DNA of 64,000 nucleotides from Candidatus Moranbacteria bacterium GW2011_GWE2_35_2-. Lineage in GTDB: Bacteria > Patescibacteriota > Minisyncoccia > Moranbacterales > UBA9337. This document shows positions 44,326 to 49,422 of this stretch, piece after piece (position 1 is the stretch's first letter; every line of letters starts with the position of its first letter). The stretch spans positions 250,408 to 314,407 of the forward strand of contig LBQD01000002.1 in NCBI GenBank assembly GCA_000990585.1, read 5' to 3'. Made by a program: the position numbers and the translations under genes. Under the pieces are notes generated by a model that saw only the letters and a program-made list of their open reading frames with translations, did no database searches and was not told the origin of the DNA.

Positions 44326-44362
44326 AATTATTTTAGGACTTATACGTTCAAGAAATATTCGT

Positions 44363-44488
44363 CCGGTTTTCCGAAAAAATATCTTTTTCTCCGACCCTTT
44401 CGAGGGACACGGGCAGCTACGAAAAAAACATTTTTTCGGAAAACCTAATGCTTTTTGTCGAAGCGCGTAAGCCGTATATTTAATATCA
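44363..44488 (+). ncRNA. Copy A of a duplicated ~120-nt structured 5' leader element (long outer stem GGTTTTCCGAAAAAA/TTTTTTCGGAAAACC enclosing a UUCG-capped hairpin)
   Basis: Direct comparison with 48569-48687 gives about 85% identity with structure-preserving differences. Lies immediately upstream of the efflux operon ATG. Confidence 0.45.
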
Positions 44489-45484
44489 ATGAGTAAAACA
44501 AAAAAAAGAATTATTTGGATTGTTGTTATTGCGATTATTGTCGGTGGATTTTGGTATTTTAAATCGAAGGGACCGGCAGTTGAATATATAACCGAAGAAG
44601 TGAAAAAAGGAAACATCGAAAGAACGGTTTCAGTTACTGGCGTGATGGTTTCGGAAAATCAAGTCGATTTGGCTTTTGAGCTTTCCGGACGCGTCGAAGC
44701 GGTGGATGTTTCCGTAGGAGATATTATTTCACAAGGACAGTTTATTGCCGGGTTGGATGATGGTATTTTAAATTCTCAACTGCAAGAAGTTCAACTGGCT
44801 TTGAATATTCAGATTGAAGCGGAAAAATTAGCCAGAAGAAATTGGAATTCTCTTAAGCCCGAAGAAAGACAGACGCAAAAAGATACCTCAGAAAAATCGC
44901 GCGCGGCGGTACGAACCGCAACAAATCAATTGGCGCGAGCTAAGCTTTATTCTCCAGTTGATGGAATTGTAACAGCGGTAAATATTAAAGAGGGAGAGGT
45001 GGCGACTGTCGGTGTGGCAGTTATTTCTGTGGCAAGTGAGGGTAATTTGGAAATTGAATCTAATATTCCTGAATCGGATATTGCTGAAGTGAAGCTGGGG
45101 CAAAAAGCCGAAGTAGTTTTTGATGCGCTTTCCAATGAGGATGTCTTTGAAGCTGAGGTGGTGGAAATTGATCCTGCTTCGACTGTTATCCAAGGAGTGG
45201 TATATTATCGGACAAAAATGAAATTAATTAGAGGTGATGAGAGAATAAAAATCGGAATGAGTCTGGATGCGGATATTTTGACGGCAAAAAAGGAAAATGT
45301 TTTGATGATTCCCGAGCGAGCGATCAAGACTGAAAACGGAGTTAAGACTGTGGAAATTTTGTTAGCTGAAAAAAATGAGACGGAAAAAGTTGAAATAGAA
45401 GTTGGTCTCAGTGGGGATGGAGGAATGATCGAAGTTTTTTCTGGATTGAAAGAGAAGGATAGAGTAGTGACGTTTGTGAAATAA
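44489..45484 (+). CDS. Efflux transporter periplasmic adaptor subunit (HlyD/MacA family)
   Basis: N-terminal TM anchor, coiled-coil hairpin, and a lipoyl/beta-barrel motif YSPVDGIV. Confidence 0.75.
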   Translation: MSKTKKRIIWIVVIAIIVGGFWYFKSKGPAVEYITEEVKKGNIERTVSVTGVMVSENQVDLAFELSGRVEAVDVSVGDIISQGQFIAGLDDGILNSQLQEVQLALNIQIEAEKLARRNWNSLKPEERQTQKDTSEKSRAAVRTATNQLARAKLYSPVDGIVTAVNIKEGEVATVGVAVISVASEGNLEIESNIPESDIAEVKLGQKAEVVFDALSNEDVFEAEVVEIDPASTVIQGVVYYRTKMKLIRGDERIKIGMSLDADILTAKKENVLMIPERAIKTENGVKTVEILLAEKNETEKVEIEVGLSGDGGMIEVFSGLKEKDRVVTFVK

Positions 45485-45494
45485 TTTTCAAAAT

Positions 45495-46223
45495 ATGTCG
45501 CTTATTCAAGTTGAAAATCTTTGCAAAATATATGATAACGAAGGTGTAAAAACTCAGGCGGTTTGCGGAGTTAATTTTGTTGTGGAAGAGGGTGATTTTG
45601 TGGCGATAATGGGACCGTCCGGAAGCGGAAAATCGACTCTGATGCAAATTTTGGGATTTCTTGATAGACCGACTAGTGGAAAATATTTTTTTGATGGAAA
45701 AAATACTAATGAATTTTCCGATGATTATTTGGCGGATTTGCGAAATAGAAAAATCGGATTTATTTTTCAAACTTTTAATTTGTTGCCGCGAACAACTGTC
45801 TTTGAAAATGTAGAATTACCGTTGCTTTACGACCGAAAAATAATCGGGCGCGATCGGAGTAATGAGGAGAAAATTAAAGAAGCCTTGAATTCGGTTATGA
45901 TGGAGCATCGGATGAATTATTTTTCCAATCAGCTTTCAGGAGGGGAAAAACAAAGAGTGGCGATTGCCAGGGCGTTGGTGAATAATCCAAGTTTAATTTT
46001 TGCTGACGAGCCGACTGGAAATTTGGATTCTAAATCGGGAACACAAATAATGAAAATCTTGCAAAAATTAAATGATGAGGGAAAGACAATTATTTTGGTA
46101 ACTCACGAAACTTTCACTGCTCGGCACGCCAAAAGAATTTTGTATGTAAAAGATGGAAATATTATTTCCGATGAAATTGTTAGAGAGCGAAGAATTGCCA
46201 AAGATGGAGAGATGCTTAAATAA
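45495..46223 (+). CDS. ABC transporter ATP-binding protein (MacB/LolD-type)
   Basis: Walker [10 protein letters not shown], signature LSGGEKQR, Walker [12 protein letters not shown] and the H-loop. Confidence 0.85.
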
Positions 46224-46310
46224 ATTTATAGTTTGAAATTTTTAATTTTGTAATTATTTAATTTTAAATTCAATTTAAATTTCGAATTAAAAATTATAAA
46301 TTAATCTGTT

Positions 46311-47558
46311 ATGCAGATTTTGAATCCCATTAAAATTTCATATAAGAATTTGGTGGCGGCGAAATTCCGCTCCTTTTTGACTATCTTGGGAATAATTATC
46401 GGAGTAGCTTCAGTAATTGTGATTATGGCGGTCGGGCTTTCAGCGCAGGAACTGATTTTGGATCAGATTCGCGGTATTGGATCGAATTTAATCGGGGTGC
46501 TTCCGGGTGCTTCGGAAGAAAACGGACCCCCTACAACAGCTTTGGGGATTTCCATAACGACGCTTACCTACGATGATTTGCAGGCAATGAAGGATCAAAG
46601 AAATATTCCTGAAGTCGAAGATGCTGCCGGATATGTTATGGGCACGAGTAAAATAAAATACGAGGAAGCGGATTTTACTTTTTCTTTTACTGGTACGACA
46701 GCGAGCTATGTTAATGTTGAGAACGCGGAAATGGAGGTGGGAAGATTTTTGAATGAAGAGGAGGAGATAAATCTTTCTCGTGTGGCGGTATTGGGAAGCG
46801 AGGTAGCGAAAGAAATATTTGGAACAGAAAATCCCTTGAATAAGAAAATAAAAATAGACGATAATAATTTTGCGGTTATTGGGGTTTTGAAAAGTCGGAG
46901 TAGTGCTGCTTTTGGAACATCCAGCCAGAATGATACAGTATATATCCCTCTGCGCACTGCGCAGAACTTGCTTTTGGGAATTAACCATCTTGGTTTTGCG
47001 AGATTAAAGGTAAGAGATAGTGATTTAATTCCGATTGCTATTGAGAATACAAAAATAACCTTGCGTGATCAGCATGATATTGATGATCCGGCTGACGATG
47101 ATTTTTCGGTGCGTGATCAAGCGGCGGCGGTTGAAACGATTTCTAATATAACGGACGCTCTGAGATATTTTCTTTTAGCCATCGGAACTATTTCGCTAGT
47201 TGTCGGAGGAGTGGGGATTATGAATGTGATGCTTATTGCGGTAAATCAAAGGATTCGCGAGGTGGGACTTCGTAAGGCGATTGGCGCTAGGAATATCGAT
47301 ATTGCTTTGCAATTTCTGGTAGAGTCGGCGACCATATCTTTTTTGGGCGGAGCGATTGGAATTATCATTGGGATTTTACTTTCTTTTGTAATTTCAATTG
47401 TCATTCAGGTATTGGGGTATACTTGGCCGTTTTTGATTTCCTTTTGGTCGGTAATTGTGGCGGCATTGGTTTCAATAGTAATCGGAATTATTTTCGGAAT
47501 GTATCCTGCCCGTAAAGCTTCGCAAGTTTCTCCAATGGAGGCGCTCCGATATGAATAG
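46311..47558 (+). CDS. ABC transporter permease, FtsX/MacB-like
   Basis: N-terminal TM, a large periplasmic domain, and a C-terminal 3-TM FtsX domain. Confidence 0.8.
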   Translation: MQILNPIKISYKNLVAAKFRSFLTILGIIIGVASVIVIMAVGLSAQELILDQIRGIGSNLIGVLPGASEENGPPTTALGISITTLTYDDLQAMKDQRNIPEVEDAAGYVMGTSKIKYEEADFTFSFTGTTASYVNVENAEMEVGRFLNEEEEINLSRVAVLGSEVAKEIFGTENPLNKKIKIDDNNFAVIGVLKSRSSAAFGTSSQNDTVYIPLRTAQNLLLGINHLGFARLKVRDSDLIPIAIENTKITLRDQHDIDDPADDDFSVRDQAAAVETISNITDALRYFLLAIGTISLVVGGVGIMNVMLIAVNQRIREVGLRKAIGARNIDIALQFLVESATISFLGGAIGIIIGILLSFVISIVIQVLGYTWPFLISFWSVIVAALVSIVIGIIFGMYPARKASQVSPMEALRYE

Positions 47559-47727
47559 AATTTCACAGTTTAATTTTTCGTTCACAAAAATCCTTGCAGG
47601 CAGAATTTGTCGGGGATTTTTTTATTTTGAATTTTATTGAAATAAAGTGTAAAATGAAAGAAAGAGTAAAATGCAAAGATAATTTCTTTGTGATTAGTAT
47701 GATATTAGCAAGTTTCACTAGGAAAAA

Positions 47728-47865
47728 ATGGATTTCTTGAAGAAGATTCTCGATCGTAATCGCCGGAGGAAAGTGGGGAGTGACTGCAAAATGCAGGATG
47801 ACCGGGAAGATCTAAAGATCCTCGGTTTTTTAACTGGCAAAATTGCGCTGTTGACAAGCTGTTAG
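47728..47865 (+). CDS. Candidate 45-aa basic micro-ORF (MDFLKKILDRNRRRKVG..) in the GC-rich island
   Basis: AGGAAAAA RBS 7 nt upstream. The GC content is locally elevated. Overlaps the downstream promoter. Speculative. Confidence 0.2.
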   Translation: MDFLKKILDRNRRRKVGSDCKMQDDREDLKILGFLTGKIALLTSC

Positions 47866-47879
47866 TTTTGATGTATACT
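47851..47879 (+). promoter_or_regulatory. Consensus sigma70 promoter TTGACA-17-TATACT
   Basis: Seen directly. Drives the Arg-rich micro-ORF. Confidence 0.5.
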
Positions 47880-47938
47880 TGGATCTCGTAAATGGGTCAT
47901 TGTTTTTCATATTAAAATTCCCAACTATAAGGAGCTAT

Positions 47939-48046
47939 ATGGGAGCGATCAGGGGCAGAGGGAGAAAAAGACGGAGACGAAAAAATTTTTGGAGCCTGCT
48001 TGAACGGGCAATGTCATTTTTCTTTATATCAAGAAAAAGGACGTAA
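47939..48046 (+). CDS. Candidate 35-aa arginine-rich peptide (MGAIRGRGRKRRRRKNFWSLLERAMSFFFISRKRT)
   Basis: SD AAGGAG 5 nt upstream of the ATG, the consensus promoter upstream, and an intrinsic terminator downstream. Confidence 0.3.
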   Translation: MGAIRGRGRKRRRRKNFWSLLERAMSFFFISRKRT

Positions 48047-48071
48047 TCCGTTTCTTTCTCCCATTTATCGA

Positions 48072-48111
48072 AATCCTCCAGGGCACTGCCACGGAGGATT
48101 TTATTTTTTTC
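48072..48111 (+). terminator. Rho-independent terminator (AATCCTCC/GGAGGATT stem plus U-run)
   Basis: Seen directly. A second hairpin plus T7 follows at about 48127-48160. Confidence 0.5.
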
Positions 48112-48222
48112 AAAAAAGCAGAACAGACTGAGGAGAAATTGCTCCTGGCCTGTTTTTTTATGCAAGATGTGTTAAGATGTTAAATAAACGGGGGTTATTT
48201 TTGTGATTTTTGAAATTTAGGT

Positions 48223-48516
48223 ATGAAAACTTTTGGGATAATTTTGTTTATTATTTTCTTGCTTTTGGGTGGGACTTGGATTGTGCTTTCTGGGATGCAT
48301 AAGGATGAGAAGGTTTTTGAGATTGTGAAAGACGAAAGTGGTTCCTGGAGTATTAAATTTGGCAAGACAGAGGGTGAATTTTTGAAGAATATGGCGAAAA
48401 AAGTTGAAAATTTGATTTATCGCGAAGCAACTAAACACAATCCGGAAGGAGATTTTCTTCCGGATCAAATTGATGATAGGATAAAAGAAGAGGTGAAAAA
48501 TAGAATTGCAGAGTAA
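48223..48516 (+). CDS. Small N-terminally anchored hypothetical protein (97 aa)
   Basis: N-terminal TM followed by a charged soluble domain. Confidence 0.4.
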   Translation: MKTFGIILFIIFLLLGGTWIVLSGMHKDEKVFEIVKDESGSWSIKFGKTEGEFLKNMAKKVENLIYREATKHNPEGDFLPDQIDDRIKEEVKNRIAE

Positions 48517-48568
48517 TTTTTTTTGGTAATTTCAAAATATAGGATCTGCGCGATCATAAGATGCTTGA

Positions 48569-48687
48569 CCGGTTTTCCGAAAAATATCTTTTTCTCCGGT
48601 TCTTTCGAGGGACACGGACAGCTGCGAAAAAAACATTTTTCGGAAAACCTGACACTTTTTATTTAATTGCGTAAGTTATAAAATATT
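48569..48687 (+). ncRNA. Copy B of the duplicated ~120-nt structured leader element
   Basis: See copy A. Lies immediately upstream of the ATG at 48688. Confidence 0.45.
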
Positions 48688-49014
48688 ATGTTAAACAAAA
48701 TTGCAAAACATACAAATAAAATTTTGGTTTTTGTTATTAATATTCTCTTGGTAATTGTCGGATCTTTTATTATTAAAAACAGGGACAAGCATATTTCTAT
48801 TGAGGTGGATACGGAAAAGGATTTATCTCCGGTAAGTTCGGATATTTTGGCAGATCAAGAGAAAATTTCGGTGGACAGGGAAAATAAGCTTCGCGATCTC
48901 AACTCTACTCCGAAAGAAATTCAACAAAAAGAAGTCACTACAACTACTACGACTACAACCACTGTGCCAAAGCCAAGCAAATCTTCCAGTGATAAAACAA
49001 CTAAAAGTTCATAA
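48688..49014 (+). CDS. Small membrane-anchored protein with a poly-Thr tract
   Basis: N-terminal TM, a TTTTTTTTT run, and a Ser/Lys-rich tail. Confidence 0.4.
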   Translation: MLNKIAKHTNKILVFVINILLVIVGSFIIKNRDKHISIEVDTEKDLSPVSSDILADQEKISVDRENKLRDLNSTPKEIQQKEVTTTTTTTTTVPKPSKSSSDKTTKSS

Positions 49015-49029
49015 TATAGTACTAACTAT

Positions 49030-49422
49030 ATGAAAAATATGAAAAAAAGAATACTTTATTTATTTTTAATAATAATATTAATTGTCGGTTTTTCTTTGTG
49101 GTCGGGTAGACATCACGGATTATTAAGTATTAATGGATTTGTAATGACGGCTTGGGCGGATGATGATGAAGATGATGATGAAAAAGATGATGATGAAGAT
49201 GATGAAGATGATGAAGATGATGAATATCGCTCAACTTCAACTTCATCCAGTAGTAGTTCTGGAAATACATCCGTAAAAACAAATGTGGATACACAAATAA
49301 CTGTCTTTAAGGATAGTGACGGCGATGGATTGTTGAATAAAGATGATCCGCATCCGGATATGGCGGAAATATATATTGTCAAAGATGACAATCGAAATGG
49401 GATTGTGGATTCTTTTGAGTAG
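49030..49422 (+). CDS. Secreted acidic protein with poly-Asp/Glu and poly-Ser tracts and a DxDGDG calcium-binding-like motif
   Basis: Signal anchor, DDDEDDDEKDDDEDDEDDEDDE, SSSSSS, and DSDGDGLLNKDD. Confidence 0.45.
   Translation: MKNMKKRILYLFLIIILIVGFSLWSGRHHGLLSINGFVMTAWADDDEDDDEKDDDEDDEDDEDDEYRSTSTSSSSSSGNTSVKTNVDTQITVFKDSDGDGLLNKDDPHPDMAEIYIVKDDNRNGIVDSFE

What the first reader, a model, noticed from the sequence alone, without database searches (positions are those of the whole stretch)
47561..48222. GC-rich 650-bp island with a promoter and terminator bracketing an arginine-rich 35-aa micro-ORF
Base composition visibly shifts toward GC relative to the flanks. Within the island there is a 45-codon ORF with an RBS, a perfect TTGACA-17-TATACT promoter, and an AAGGAG-led ORF encoding MGAIRGRGRKRRRRKNFWSLLERAMSFFFISRKRT. 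Two successive intrinsic terminators follow. A compact stand-alone unit like this suggests a small toxic or regulatory peptide, a structured sRNA, or a horizontally acquired fragment. I checked by eye for RNase P, SRP and tmRNA signatures and found none convincing.
Basis: seen in the sequence. Interest (0 to 1): 0.55.

Follow-up and report, generated by a model that had tools for sequence, protein, structure and literature searches.

The report
Small arginine-rich gene in Moranbacteria spacer
The "island" is an ordinary-composition 664-base spacer in an uncultured groundwater bacterium; it holds a tiny unannotated gene for a very basic 35-residue peptide, also present in two related species and of unknown function.

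Summary
The sequence features are real, but the region is not GC-rich: 0.361 against a window mean of 0.369. The spacer 47559-48222 lies between a MacB/FtsX permease gene and a 97-aa membrane-protein gene. The organism is a Candidatus Moranbacteria (CPR) bacterium from Rifle groundwater.

No Rfam family, tRNA or tmRNA matches. The useful part is 47851-48110. It holds a TTGACA-17-TATACT promoter, a 53-nt leader, AAGGAG, ATG, a 35-codon ORF (MGAIRGRGRKRRRRK...) and a strong terminator.

The same unit occurs in two related lineages: L091/L092 (MGEIRKKGRRRRIGKK..., 30 aa) and L097 (20 aa, frameshifted). A positional analogue occurs in L090. It always lies just upstream of the 97-aa gene cluster, while the genes further upstream differ. 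The -35 box, the SD-ATG block, the Arg-rich first ~16 codons and the terminator are kept. The C-terminus and the RNA fold are not.

The 45-codon ORF has no homologue and contains a terminator, so it is probably spurious.

Best reading: a stand-alone, probably translated micro-gene for a basic, RNA- or ribosome-binding peptide. It resembles bS22, but the profile tests failed. An sRNA, an attenuator or a toxin role is not excluded. Interest is modest.

The parts
47569..47631 (+). Intrinsic terminator after the MacB/FtsX permease gene (hairpin 47586-47621 plus U-run), preceded by a short relic (TTTAATTTTTCGTTCAC). The whole stretch is a second, partial copy of the 3' end of the micro-gene unit.
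   Evidence: It is 88% identical over 65 nt to L091 1644-1708 and L097 1836-1900, where it directly follows the micro-ORF. nhmmer with the unit profile gives E 2.5e-8. The fold is -11.7 kcal/mol.
47728..47865 (+). 45-codon ORF (MDFLKKILDRNRRRK...). Probably not a gene.
   Evidence: Its only database match is itself, from the same species. There is no Pfam or NCBIfam hit and no tblastx match in relatives. A hairpin with U6 lies inside it, and its stop codon overlaps the next -35 box.
47800..47837 (+). Hairpin followed by UUUUUU. A moderate terminator-like site in a species-specific stretch (47632-47850).
   Evidence: Fold -11.7 kcal/mol, z -1.4. No homologue of 47632-47850 in any fetched locus.
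47851..47879 (+). Sigma-70-type promoter TTGACA-17-TATACT of the micro-gene. The start of transcription is predicted near 47886.
   Evidence: 11/12 match. TTGACA is invariant, and the -10 box is TATCCT, TATCCT and TATAGT at the same spacing in L091, L097 and L090. Homology between L091 and L097 begins at the -35 box.
47886..47938 (+). Predicted 5' leader. It holds the conserved AAAWUCCC (47914-47923) and the AAGGAG Shine-Dalgarno (47929-47934). UCCCA can pair with the UGGGA that overlaps the start codon, but weakly.
   Evidence: Alignment. The hairpins are only -4.4 to -6.8 kcal/mol and not significant. A Shine-Dalgarno is rare in this genome: about 2-3 of 43 long ORFs have one.
47939..48046 (+). 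Micro-ORF of 35 codons plus stop, net charge +12. The N-terminal motif is MG-x-I-R-x-x-G-R-x-R-R-R.
   Evidence: Homologues are L091 1556-1648 (30 aa) and L097 1744-1806 (20 aa). Peptide similarity between the window and L091 exceeds all 3000 shuffles. tblastx also finds the match.
47960..48062 (+). Four-way RNA junction. The Arg-codon tract GGGAGAAAAAGACGGA (47960-47975) pairs with UCCGUUUCUUUCUCCC (48047-48062) and encloses three hairpins.
   Evidence: -40.5 kcal/mol, z -4.9; inverted repeat I4. L091 and L097 have an analogous 14-15-bp helix, but in a different register. L090 has none.
48070..48110 (+). Terminator T1 of the micro-gene, homologous to the L091/L097 terminator.
   Evidence: -18.7 kcal/mol, z -4.9, followed by UAUUUUUUU. 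Aligned with the relatives.
48120..48160 (+). Second intrinsic terminator, T2.
   Evidence: -15.2 kcal/mol, U7.
48166..48222 (+). Upstream region of the 97-aa gene, with a likely extended -10 promoter TGTTAAGAT (48170-48178). This is an inference.
   Evidence: 68% identity over 66 nt to the region upstream of the same gene in L097 (TGCTAAAAT there), E 8e-6.

Best explanation
The spacer holds one real element: a stand-alone, monocistronic micro-gene at 47851-48110.

A near-consensus sigma-70 promoter would start a transcript of about 225 nt near 47886, and a strong intrinsic terminator (T1, backed up by T2) would end it. A canonical AAGGAG, which is rare in this Shine-Dalgarno-poor genome, sits four bases before an ATG. 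I think the ORF is translated into a 35-residue peptide with net charge +12. Its conserved part is the arginine-rich N-terminus, MG-x-I-R-x-x-G-R-x-R-R-R.

The most likely activity is binding of RNA, either the ribosome or an mRNA, through that arginine-rich helix. This is how the small ribosomal proteins bS22 and eL41 and arginine-rich-motif peptides work. In the mRNA the Arg-codon tract is locked in a long helix with the sequence next to the stop codon. That helix probably limits or gates translation, or stabilises the transcript.

Shown: the anatomy, the conservation of the unit, its independence from its neighbours, and the absence of any known RNA family.

Inferred: transcription, translation and the RNA-binding role.

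Rough confidence by layer:
- independent conserved unit, 0.8
- translated, 0.55-0.6
- RNA or ribosome binding, 0.3-0.4
For: UNIT AND CONSERVATION
- Promoter, Shine-Dalgarno, ORF and terminators are all present.
- The unit is conserved in L091/L092 and L097. blastn of 47851-47985 against L097 gives 65% over 142 nt, E 3e-8. nhmmer finds only these loci in about 1 Mb of Moranbacteria DNA.
- The best-conserved blocks are TTGACA and AAGGAGYTATATGGGAG.
- Flanking spacer sequence cannot be aligned, and L091-L097 homology starts at the -35 box.

SIGNS OF TRANSLATION
- The peptide N-termini align (MGAIRGRGRKRRRR against MGEIRKKGRRRRIG). They differ by synonymous changes (ATC/ATT, GGG/GGA, AGA/AGG), R/K exchanges and a one-codon indel.
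- Similarity exceeds every composition-preserving shuffle.
- ORFs with a Shine-Dalgarno and such an Arg-rich start are rare: only two others turned up in 1.04 Mb on both strands.
- Only about 2-3 of 43 long ORFs in the window have a Shine-Dalgarno, so a conserved AAGGAG is not background.

INDEPENDENCE
- In L091 and L097 the unit ends at a terminator shared with a convergent gene.
- The 97-aa gene has its own conserved upstream element.

RNA-BINDING LEAD
- Local alignment to M. smegmatis bS22 (sequence confirmed in PDB) scores above shuffles: p 0.0014 for L091 and 0.014 for the window.
- True bS22 proteins of three phyla share only 19% identity and were missed by annotation (PMC10618245).
Against: - There are only two independent lineages. 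L091 and L097 are 87% identical even at fourfold sites, so no real test of coding against RNA constraint is possible.
- The C-terminal half is not conserved. A 1-nt indel cuts it off at 20 aa in L097. Amphipathicity is inconsistent across the family.
- There are no homologues among 5.8 billion proteins or 1.84 billion representatives, other than the L091 ORF itself.
- No gene caller called this ORF in eight assemblies of this species.
- bS22 membership fails the profile tests: Pfam, NCBIfam, PDB phmmer, and my own 3-sequence bS22 profile with p 0.07-0.2.
- The K+R fraction is 37-50%, against 55-61% in bS22.
- The unit is missing from the equivalent place in L100, L093, L101 and L001. That is unlike a core ribosomal protein.
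- Strong RNA folds overlap the ORF, so an RNA-level function remains possible.
Confidence: 0.4

Rival explanations
1. Non-coding or dual-function small RNA. The ~225-nt transcript acts as RNA. Its purine-rich tract or its stems are the functional part, and the ORF is incidental.
For: - The folds are well below shuffled controls: 47880-48165 z -5.1; core 47950-48070 -40.5 kcal/mol, z -4.9; L091 and L097 ORF regions z -3.6 and -3.2.
- Three one-sided compatible changes keep the long helix between L091 and L097.
- The leader is conserved about as well as the ORF.
- The C-terminus is dispensable in L097.
Against: - The long helix is in a different register in the window than in L091, and it is absent in L090 (z +0.4).
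- No Rfam family matches, even at E<=10.
- The most conserved block is exactly SD plus ATG plus the first codons.
Confidence: 0.2
2. Translated, but as a membrane-active cationic peptide: a small toxin, or a leaderless bacteriocin-like peptide. It might be handled by the adjacent MacAB-type exporter or belong to the accessory module seen in relatives.
For: - The charge is high and the tail is hydrophobic or aromatic.
- L091 residues 11-28 form a strongly amphipathic helix (hydrophobic moment 0.83, p 0.008). L090 gives 0.76.
- In the window and in L090 the unit follows the MFP-ABC-FtsX exporter genes.
- Distribution is patchy and evolution is fast. The unit is linked with a Cys-rich peptide and a UvrA-like ATPase.
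Against: - The window peptide is not amphipathic (p 0.62), and the L097 peptide lacks the tail altogether.
- No peptide has a hydrophobic stretch long enough to span a membrane.
- No antisense promoter was found for a type I antitoxin.
- In L091 and L097 the exporter is not adjacent.
Confidence: 0.15
3. An arginine-codon leader peptide of a ribosome-mediated attenuator. It would control read-through of T1 and T2 into the 97-aa gene cluster.
For: - Seven Arg codons fall within ten (residues 5-14).
- The Arg tract pairs with the sequence right after the stop codon.
- A terminator follows 24 nt later, and the downstream genes run in the same direction in the window and in L090.
Against: - I found no mutually exclusive antiterminator pairing. 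The long helix and T1 coexist in the minimum-energy and centroid folds.
- In L091 and L097 the unit runs into the 3' end of a convergent gene.
- The downstream genes have their own promoter-like elements.
- The downstream genes have no link to arginine.
Confidence: 0.1
4. A functionless scar of rearrangement: leftover pieces, including duplicated terminators, where an accessory module was lost.
For: - The spacer sits at a synteny breakpoint.
- Relatives carry a 1.4-1.5-kb UvrA-like ATPase gene and a Cys-rich peptide gene here, and the window lacks both.
- A partial second copy of the unit's 3' end lies at 47569-47631.
- 47632-47850 is an orphan stretch.
Against: - The promoter hexamers, SD-ATG block, Arg-rich codons and terminator are retained across species whose neighbouring spacer DNA cannot be aligned.
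- There is no trace of the ATPase in the spacer.
Confidence: 0.1

Closest known systems
Small ribosomal subunit protein bS22 (Pfam COX24_C/DUF1713), with its analogues eL41 and mS38
   Same: - About 30 residues, starts MG, and is very basic.
- Often missed by annotation.
- Position-specific similarity to the M. smegmatis protein is above shuffled controls.
- Known members are very divergent from one another: 19% identity across three phyla (PMC10618245).
   Different: - The K+R fraction is lower: 37-50% against 55-61%.
- The C-terminus is hydrophobic.
- No profile match.
- Patchy distribution, fast evolution, and truncation in one species.
- Ribosome binding is untested.
Arginine-rich-motif RNA-binding peptides, such as the N-terminus of phage lambda N (own knowledge)
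   Same: A short run of arginines at the N-terminus. Structured hairpins and terminators lie in the same transcript.
   Different: There is no sequence homology and no phage context. There is no identified target hairpin. The resemblance is in composition only.
Leader peptides of amino-acid attenuators (trp, his, leu type; own knowledge)
   Same: A short ORF with a run of one amino acid's codons, followed closely by an intrinsic terminator. The codon tract is base-paired with a downstream segment.
   Different: No alternative antiterminator was found. There is no consistent regulated gene, and in two relatives the unit converges on another gene.
rpsU (bS21) of Flavobacteriia: the one gene with a strong SD in an SD-blind lineage, autoregulated through the anti-SD (PMC9976891, PMC13000453)
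   Same: A small basic protein gene with an unusually strong SD, in a genome where most genes lack one.
   Different: No homology to bS21. It is not known whether this organism's ribosomes ignore SD sequences. This is only an analogy.
Type I toxin genes and other small stand-alone ORFs with their own promoter and terminator
   Same: A compact promoter-sORF-terminator unit, lineage-restricted and unannotated.
   Different: The peptide is not hydrophobic, and no antisense RNA promoter was detected.

Membership tests
Known housekeeping or regulatory RNAs (RNase P, SRP, 6S, tmRNA, riboswitches; Rfam 15) | Match to the family covariance model at or near its gathering score | tested here: not met
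   The gathering scan of the window found only two tRNAs. The E<=10 scan of 47400-48700 gave only chance-level miRNA and sRNA hits, 14-21 bits against cut-offs of 30-106. ARAGORN found no tmRNA.
bS22 (COX24_C/DUF1713) | Length about 30-33 aa with a basic N-terminal start (MG or MP) | tested here: met
   The peptides are 35, 30 and 20 aa, and all start MG. Reference sequences came from PDB and PMC10618245.
bS22 (COX24_C/DUF1713) | Recognised by the family profile or by sequence search against solved bS22 chains | tested here: not met
   No Pfam or NCBIfam hit at E<=1. phmmer against PDB gave nothing at E<=10. My own 3-sequence bS22 profile scored 2-4 bits, p 0.07-0.2 against shuffles. Caveat: phmmer with the Msm protein listed none of the chains deposited for other phyla.
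bS22 (COX24_C/DUF1713) | Pairwise similarity to a solved bS22 beyond composition | tested here: inconclusive
   Smith-Waterman against Msm bS22: L091 scores 52 against shuffles of 29+-5 (p 0.0014). The window gives p 0.014, L097 0.056 and L090 0.27. The comparison was chosen post hoc.
bS22 (COX24_C/DUF1713) | Basic along its whole length (55-61% K+R) and strongly conserved within a lineage | tested here: not met
   K+R is 37-50%, with a hydrophobic tail. The window and L091 peptides are 37% identical, while the neighbouring 97-aa protein is 75% identical. The unit is absent from the equivalent locus in L100, L093 and L101.
bS22 (COX24_C/DUF1713) | Occupies the 16S pocket formed by h2, h27, h44 and h45 | not testable with these tools
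   This needs ribosome structures or binding assays.
Ribosome-mediated attenuator | Short ORF with a run of regulatory codons, followed by an intrinsic terminator | tested here: met
   Seven Arg in residues 5-14. T1 starts 24 nt after the stop codon.
Ribosome-mediated attenuator | Mutually exclusive terminator and antiterminator pairings | tested here: not met
   The long helix and T1 coexist in the minimum-energy and centroid structures. By eye I found no conserved alternative pairing. Suboptimal folds were not enumerated.
Ribosome-mediated attenuator | A regulated downstream gene in the same orientation in all members | tested here: not met
   In L091 and L097 the unit converges on the ATPase gene.
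Type I toxin-antitoxin | Hydrophobic membrane peptide plus an overlapping or adjacent antisense RNA | tested here: not met
   Mean hydrophobicity is -0.4 to -0.66 and there is no long hydrophobic stretch. No minus-strand promoter-like site lies within 47700-48222.
Pseudogene of the UvrA-like ATPase that fills this slot in relatives | Residual translated similarity to the 465/501-aa protein | tested here: not met
   tblastn with word size 2 and no filter: the best E is 0.55, and the hits are scattered short matches in all frames.

The most novel reading that the evidence does not exclude
The micro-gene encodes a so far unrecognised small ribosome-binding protein of some CPR bacteria, an analogue of bS22/eL41. 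Its unusually strong Shine-Dalgarno, in a genome that mostly lacks them, would mark a feedback loop through the ribosome, as for rpsU in Flavobacteriia.
Probability: 0.1. Interest if true: 0.65.

Novelty: new member of a known kind. Interest (0 to 1): 0.33.

Why it matters
If the peptide is made, it adds an unannotated, lineage-restricted micro-protein to the very small proteomes of CPR bacteria. In those genomes nearly every gene is expected to count, and small basic proteins such as bS22 have repeatedly been missed. The case also shows that a strong promoter, Shine-Dalgarno and terminator around a tiny ORF can be checked by comparing neighbouring species. As it stands, the family is narrow (three or four species) and its function is unknown, so the practical weight is modest.

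Tried and rejected
KNOWN RNAs
- Rfam at gathering score and at E<=10, and ARAGORN: nothing.

GC ISLAND
- Rejected by direct counts.

HOMOLOGUES THROUGH THE UPSTREAM PERMEASE
- 80 Moranbacteria loci were fetched. None has the spacer or the downstream genes, and synteny stops at 47558.

POPULATION VARIATION
- Eight assemblies of the same species are identical over all 664 nt, so they carry no information.

DNA PATTERN SCANS
- The metagenome scan with AAGGAGYTATATGGGAGNNATYAG gave one chance hit in an unrelated high-GC contig.
- Two viral-contig scans gave nothing.
- Phage and plasmid blastn gave nothing.

PROTEIN SEARCHES
- Searches with the peptide profile returned only the L091 ORF.
- The 45-aa ORF matched only itself.

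REJECTED READINGS
- Pseudogene of the UvrA-like ATPase.
- The minus-strand 76-aa ORF 47935-48165: it contains both terminators, has no promoter, and is not conserved.
- A tblastx hit in L037: it lies antisense inside a 227-aa gene, so it is chance.
- A conserved amphipathic helix: not consistent across the family.
- A hairpin sequestering the start codon: too weak to claim.
- An 11-nt complementarity, seen by eye, between the Arg tract and the repeated upstream element. About that many such matches are expected by chance in 64 kb.

NOT RUN
- Structure prediction. A 35-residue helix would not discriminate between the hypotheses.

Full report
WHAT THE WINDOW IS

The flanking genes and exact-protein look-ups place the window in a Candidatus Moranbacteria (CPR/Patescibacteria) genome from Rifle groundwater, for example LBSZ01000001.1. 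The finding covers a 664-nt spacer, 47559-48222. It lies between the last gene of an MFP / ABC ATPase / MacB-FtsX permease operon (44489-47558) and a 97-aa membrane-protein gene (48223-48516). That gene heads a cluster of small proteins, ApbE and a ferric-reductase-like protein.

CHECK OF THE OBSERVATION

- The promoter TTGACA-17-TATACT (47851-47879) is one of eight sites at >=11/12 in the window. Simulated sequence gives about 1.5.
- The GC claim fails. The spacer is 0.361 GC against 0.369 for the window, and it is poorer than the upstream gene. Only 47750-48100 reaches 0.427, the 89th percentile.
- No Rfam family matches at gathering score or at E<=10, and ARAGORN finds no tmRNA.

STRUCTURE IN THE SINGLE SEQUENCE

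- The plus strand of 47880-48165 folds at -89.4 kcal/mol, z -5.1.
- Without the terminators, 47950-48070 forms a four-way junction at -40.5 kcal/mol, z -4.9. In it the Arg-codon tract GGGAGAAAAAGACGGA (47960-47975) pairs with UCCGUUUCUUUCUCCC (48047-48062), right after the stop codon.
- T1 (48070-48110) is a strong terminator: -18.7 kcal/mol, z -4.9. T2 is also good.

FINDING RELATIVES

- Anchoring on the permease gave 80 Moranbacteria loci. None contains the spacer or the downstream genes. In the closest species (L001, permease 90% identical) synteny ends at 47558.
- Eight assemblies of the same species are identical over the spacer.
- Anchoring on the 97-aa protein worked. It has eight homologue clusters, and I fetched their contigs.
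- In most relatives the slot upstream of the 97-aa gene holds two things. One is a 465/501-aa truncated UvrA-like ATPase (NCBIfam UvrA E 1.5e-109, but below cut-off). The other is a Cys-rich 51-52-aa peptide gene.
- The window has neither, and the spacer holds no detectable remnant of the ATPase.

THE CONSERVED UNIT

Sensitive blastn, tblastx and nhmmer show that 47851-48110 has homologues in L091/L092 (1466-1712) and L097 (1650-1904). Shared features:
- TTGACA, a 17-nt spacer and TATCCT.
- A leader with AAAAATCCC.
- AAGGAGTTATATGGGAG.
- An Arg-rich ORF: MGEIRKKGRRRRIGKKIRKLIKSIKMLFSF in L091, and MGEIRRKGRRRRIGKKIKIL in L097.
- A terminator.

L090 has a positional analogue after its permease: TTGACA promoter, MKRRMKRRRWRRFKRKIKKGLFLAGRFIFG, terminator. 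Neither nhmmer nor the peptide shuffles show homology for it.

Between L091 and L097 the alignment begins exactly at the -35 box. In both, the unit ends at a terminator shared with the convergent ATPase gene, so it serves no downstream gene.

The same terminator, plus the relic TTTAATTTTTCGTTCAC, is present a second time in the window at 47569-47631, directly after the permease. It is 88% identical to the L091 copy. This points to a past duplication or rearrangement.

The unit is absent next to the 97-aa gene in L100, L093 and L101. Its distribution is therefore patchy, and in relatives it follows the accessory ATPase / Cys-peptide module.

PROTEIN OR RNA?

For translation:
- The most conserved block is the SD plus start codon plus the first codons.
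- Differences among the window, L091 and L097 in codons 1-13 include synonymous changes, R/K exchanges and a one-codon indel.
- The peptides are more alike than any composition-preserving shuffle.
- Such ORFs are rare in 1 Mb of related DNA.
- A strong SD is exceptional in this genome. Only about 2-3 of 43 long ORFs have one, and several genes look leaderless.

Against translation:
- The C-terminal halves differ.
- L097 is truncated by a 1-nt indel.
- L091 and L097 are too close to show constraint: 87% identity at fourfold sites against 88-94% in the unit.
- Amphipathicity is inconsistent.
- Two very large protein searches returned only the L091 ORF.

For RNA:
- L091 and L097 also pair their Arg-codon tract with the stop-codon region (z -3.6 and -3.2).
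- However, the register differs from the window, and L090 has no such fold. The helix is recurrent rather than homologous.

THE OTHER PIECES

- The 45-codon ORF (47728-47865) matches only itself. It has a terminator-like hairpin inside it, and its stop overlaps the next -35 box. I regard it as spurious.
- The stretch 47632-47850 has no homologue anywhere.
- The 97-aa gene appears to have its own extended -10 element at 48170-48178, conserved in L097. This is an inference.

COMPARISON WITH KNOWN THINGS

The peptide recalls bS22. I confirmed the M. smegmatis sequence in PDB. I took the Borrelia and Flavobacterium sequences from PMC10618245, which also shows that bS22 is easily missed and only 19% identical across phyla.

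Pairwise similarity to the mycobacterial protein exceeds shuffles: p 0.0014 for L091 and 0.014 for the window. Every profile test fails. The basic fraction is too low, the tail is hydrophobic, and the gene is not conserved like a ribosomal protein. So it may work like bS22 or eL41, but I do not file it as a member.

The attenuator and type I toxin models each fail at least one defining feature (see the membership table).

The strong SD in an SD-poor genome is reminiscent of rpsU in Flavobacteriia (PMC9976891, PMC13000453). That is an analogy only.

VERDICT

The spacer holds a real, unannotated, lineage-restricted micro-gene, plus rearrangement debris. It is not a GC island and not a known RNA. 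Translation into a basic, RNA-binding peptide is the most likely reading (overall about 0.4). The rivals are an sRNA, a membrane-active peptide, an attenuator and a functionless scar. Interest is modest.

Noticed in passing
window 44356-44480 and 48562-48684; also L001 26-150, L100 10341-10465 and 2896-2995, L090 3838-3998 and 29-171: A repeated element of about 125 nt. It is always on the same strand as a gene and just upstream of it: the MFP gene, an FtsE-like ABC gene, an FtsX permease gene, or the 108-aa gene. It folds into a long rod: outer stem GGUUUUCCGAAAAAA/UUUUUUCGGAAAACC, inner CCGGCCC-UUUCGA-GGGACACGG. The L090 copies carry a 37-nt insertion in the apical loop. It is absent between the same genes in L091. 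There is no Rfam match, and only 2 pairs show compensatory change. It is either a MITE-like repeat or a cis-regulatory leader.
   Followed up: partly
whole window, upstream regions of 43 long ORFs: The genome is poor in Shine-Dalgarno sequences. Clear GGAGG-type sites occur only before 41710 and 42702. Several genes have a TATAAT-like box about 7 nt before the start codon (3025, 33101, 52198, 58337), which suggests leaderless mRNAs.
   Followed up: partly
L090 1865-2023; L091 3282-3437: A conserved 51-52-aa Cys-rich peptide, MKPEVRKKYFNPRIEIFSAF...EKAAACCACTACTACR, with no Pfam or NCBIfam match. It looks like a precursor of a modified peptide. In L090 the called 501-aa ATPase ORF starts 32 nt before this gene's stop codon (at 1992), so the two overlap slightly. 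It is not present in the window.
   Followed up: partly
L091 1705-3102 (-), L097 1897-3294 (-), L090 1992-3497 (+), L094 1-1173 (-): A 465-aa truncated UvrA-like double ABC ATPase occupies the slot upstream of the 97-aa gene in relatives. It is in either orientation, and the window lacks it. The best NCBIfam hit is UvrA, E 1.5e-109, far below the equivalog cut-off.
   Followed up: partly
window 47569-47631 versus 48070-48113: There are two diverged copies of the same terminator in the spacer. The copy after the permease is closer (88%) to the L091/L097 micro-gene terminator than the copy that ends the window's own micro-gene. This points to duplication and rearrangement at this site.
   Followed up: yes
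window 49030-49422: The 130-aa protein has an N-terminal membrane helix followed by a long Asp/Glu run and a Ser run. It gives only chance-level family hits.
   Followed up: no
L090 1538-1630: In the L090 analogue a second 30-codon ORF (MSWRRILLNNKKIKRGKNEEKNEEKKVEEI) starts about 4 nt after the -10 box, in a leaderless-like position. It overlaps the Arg-rich ORF in another frame, so which one is translated is open.
   Followed up: no
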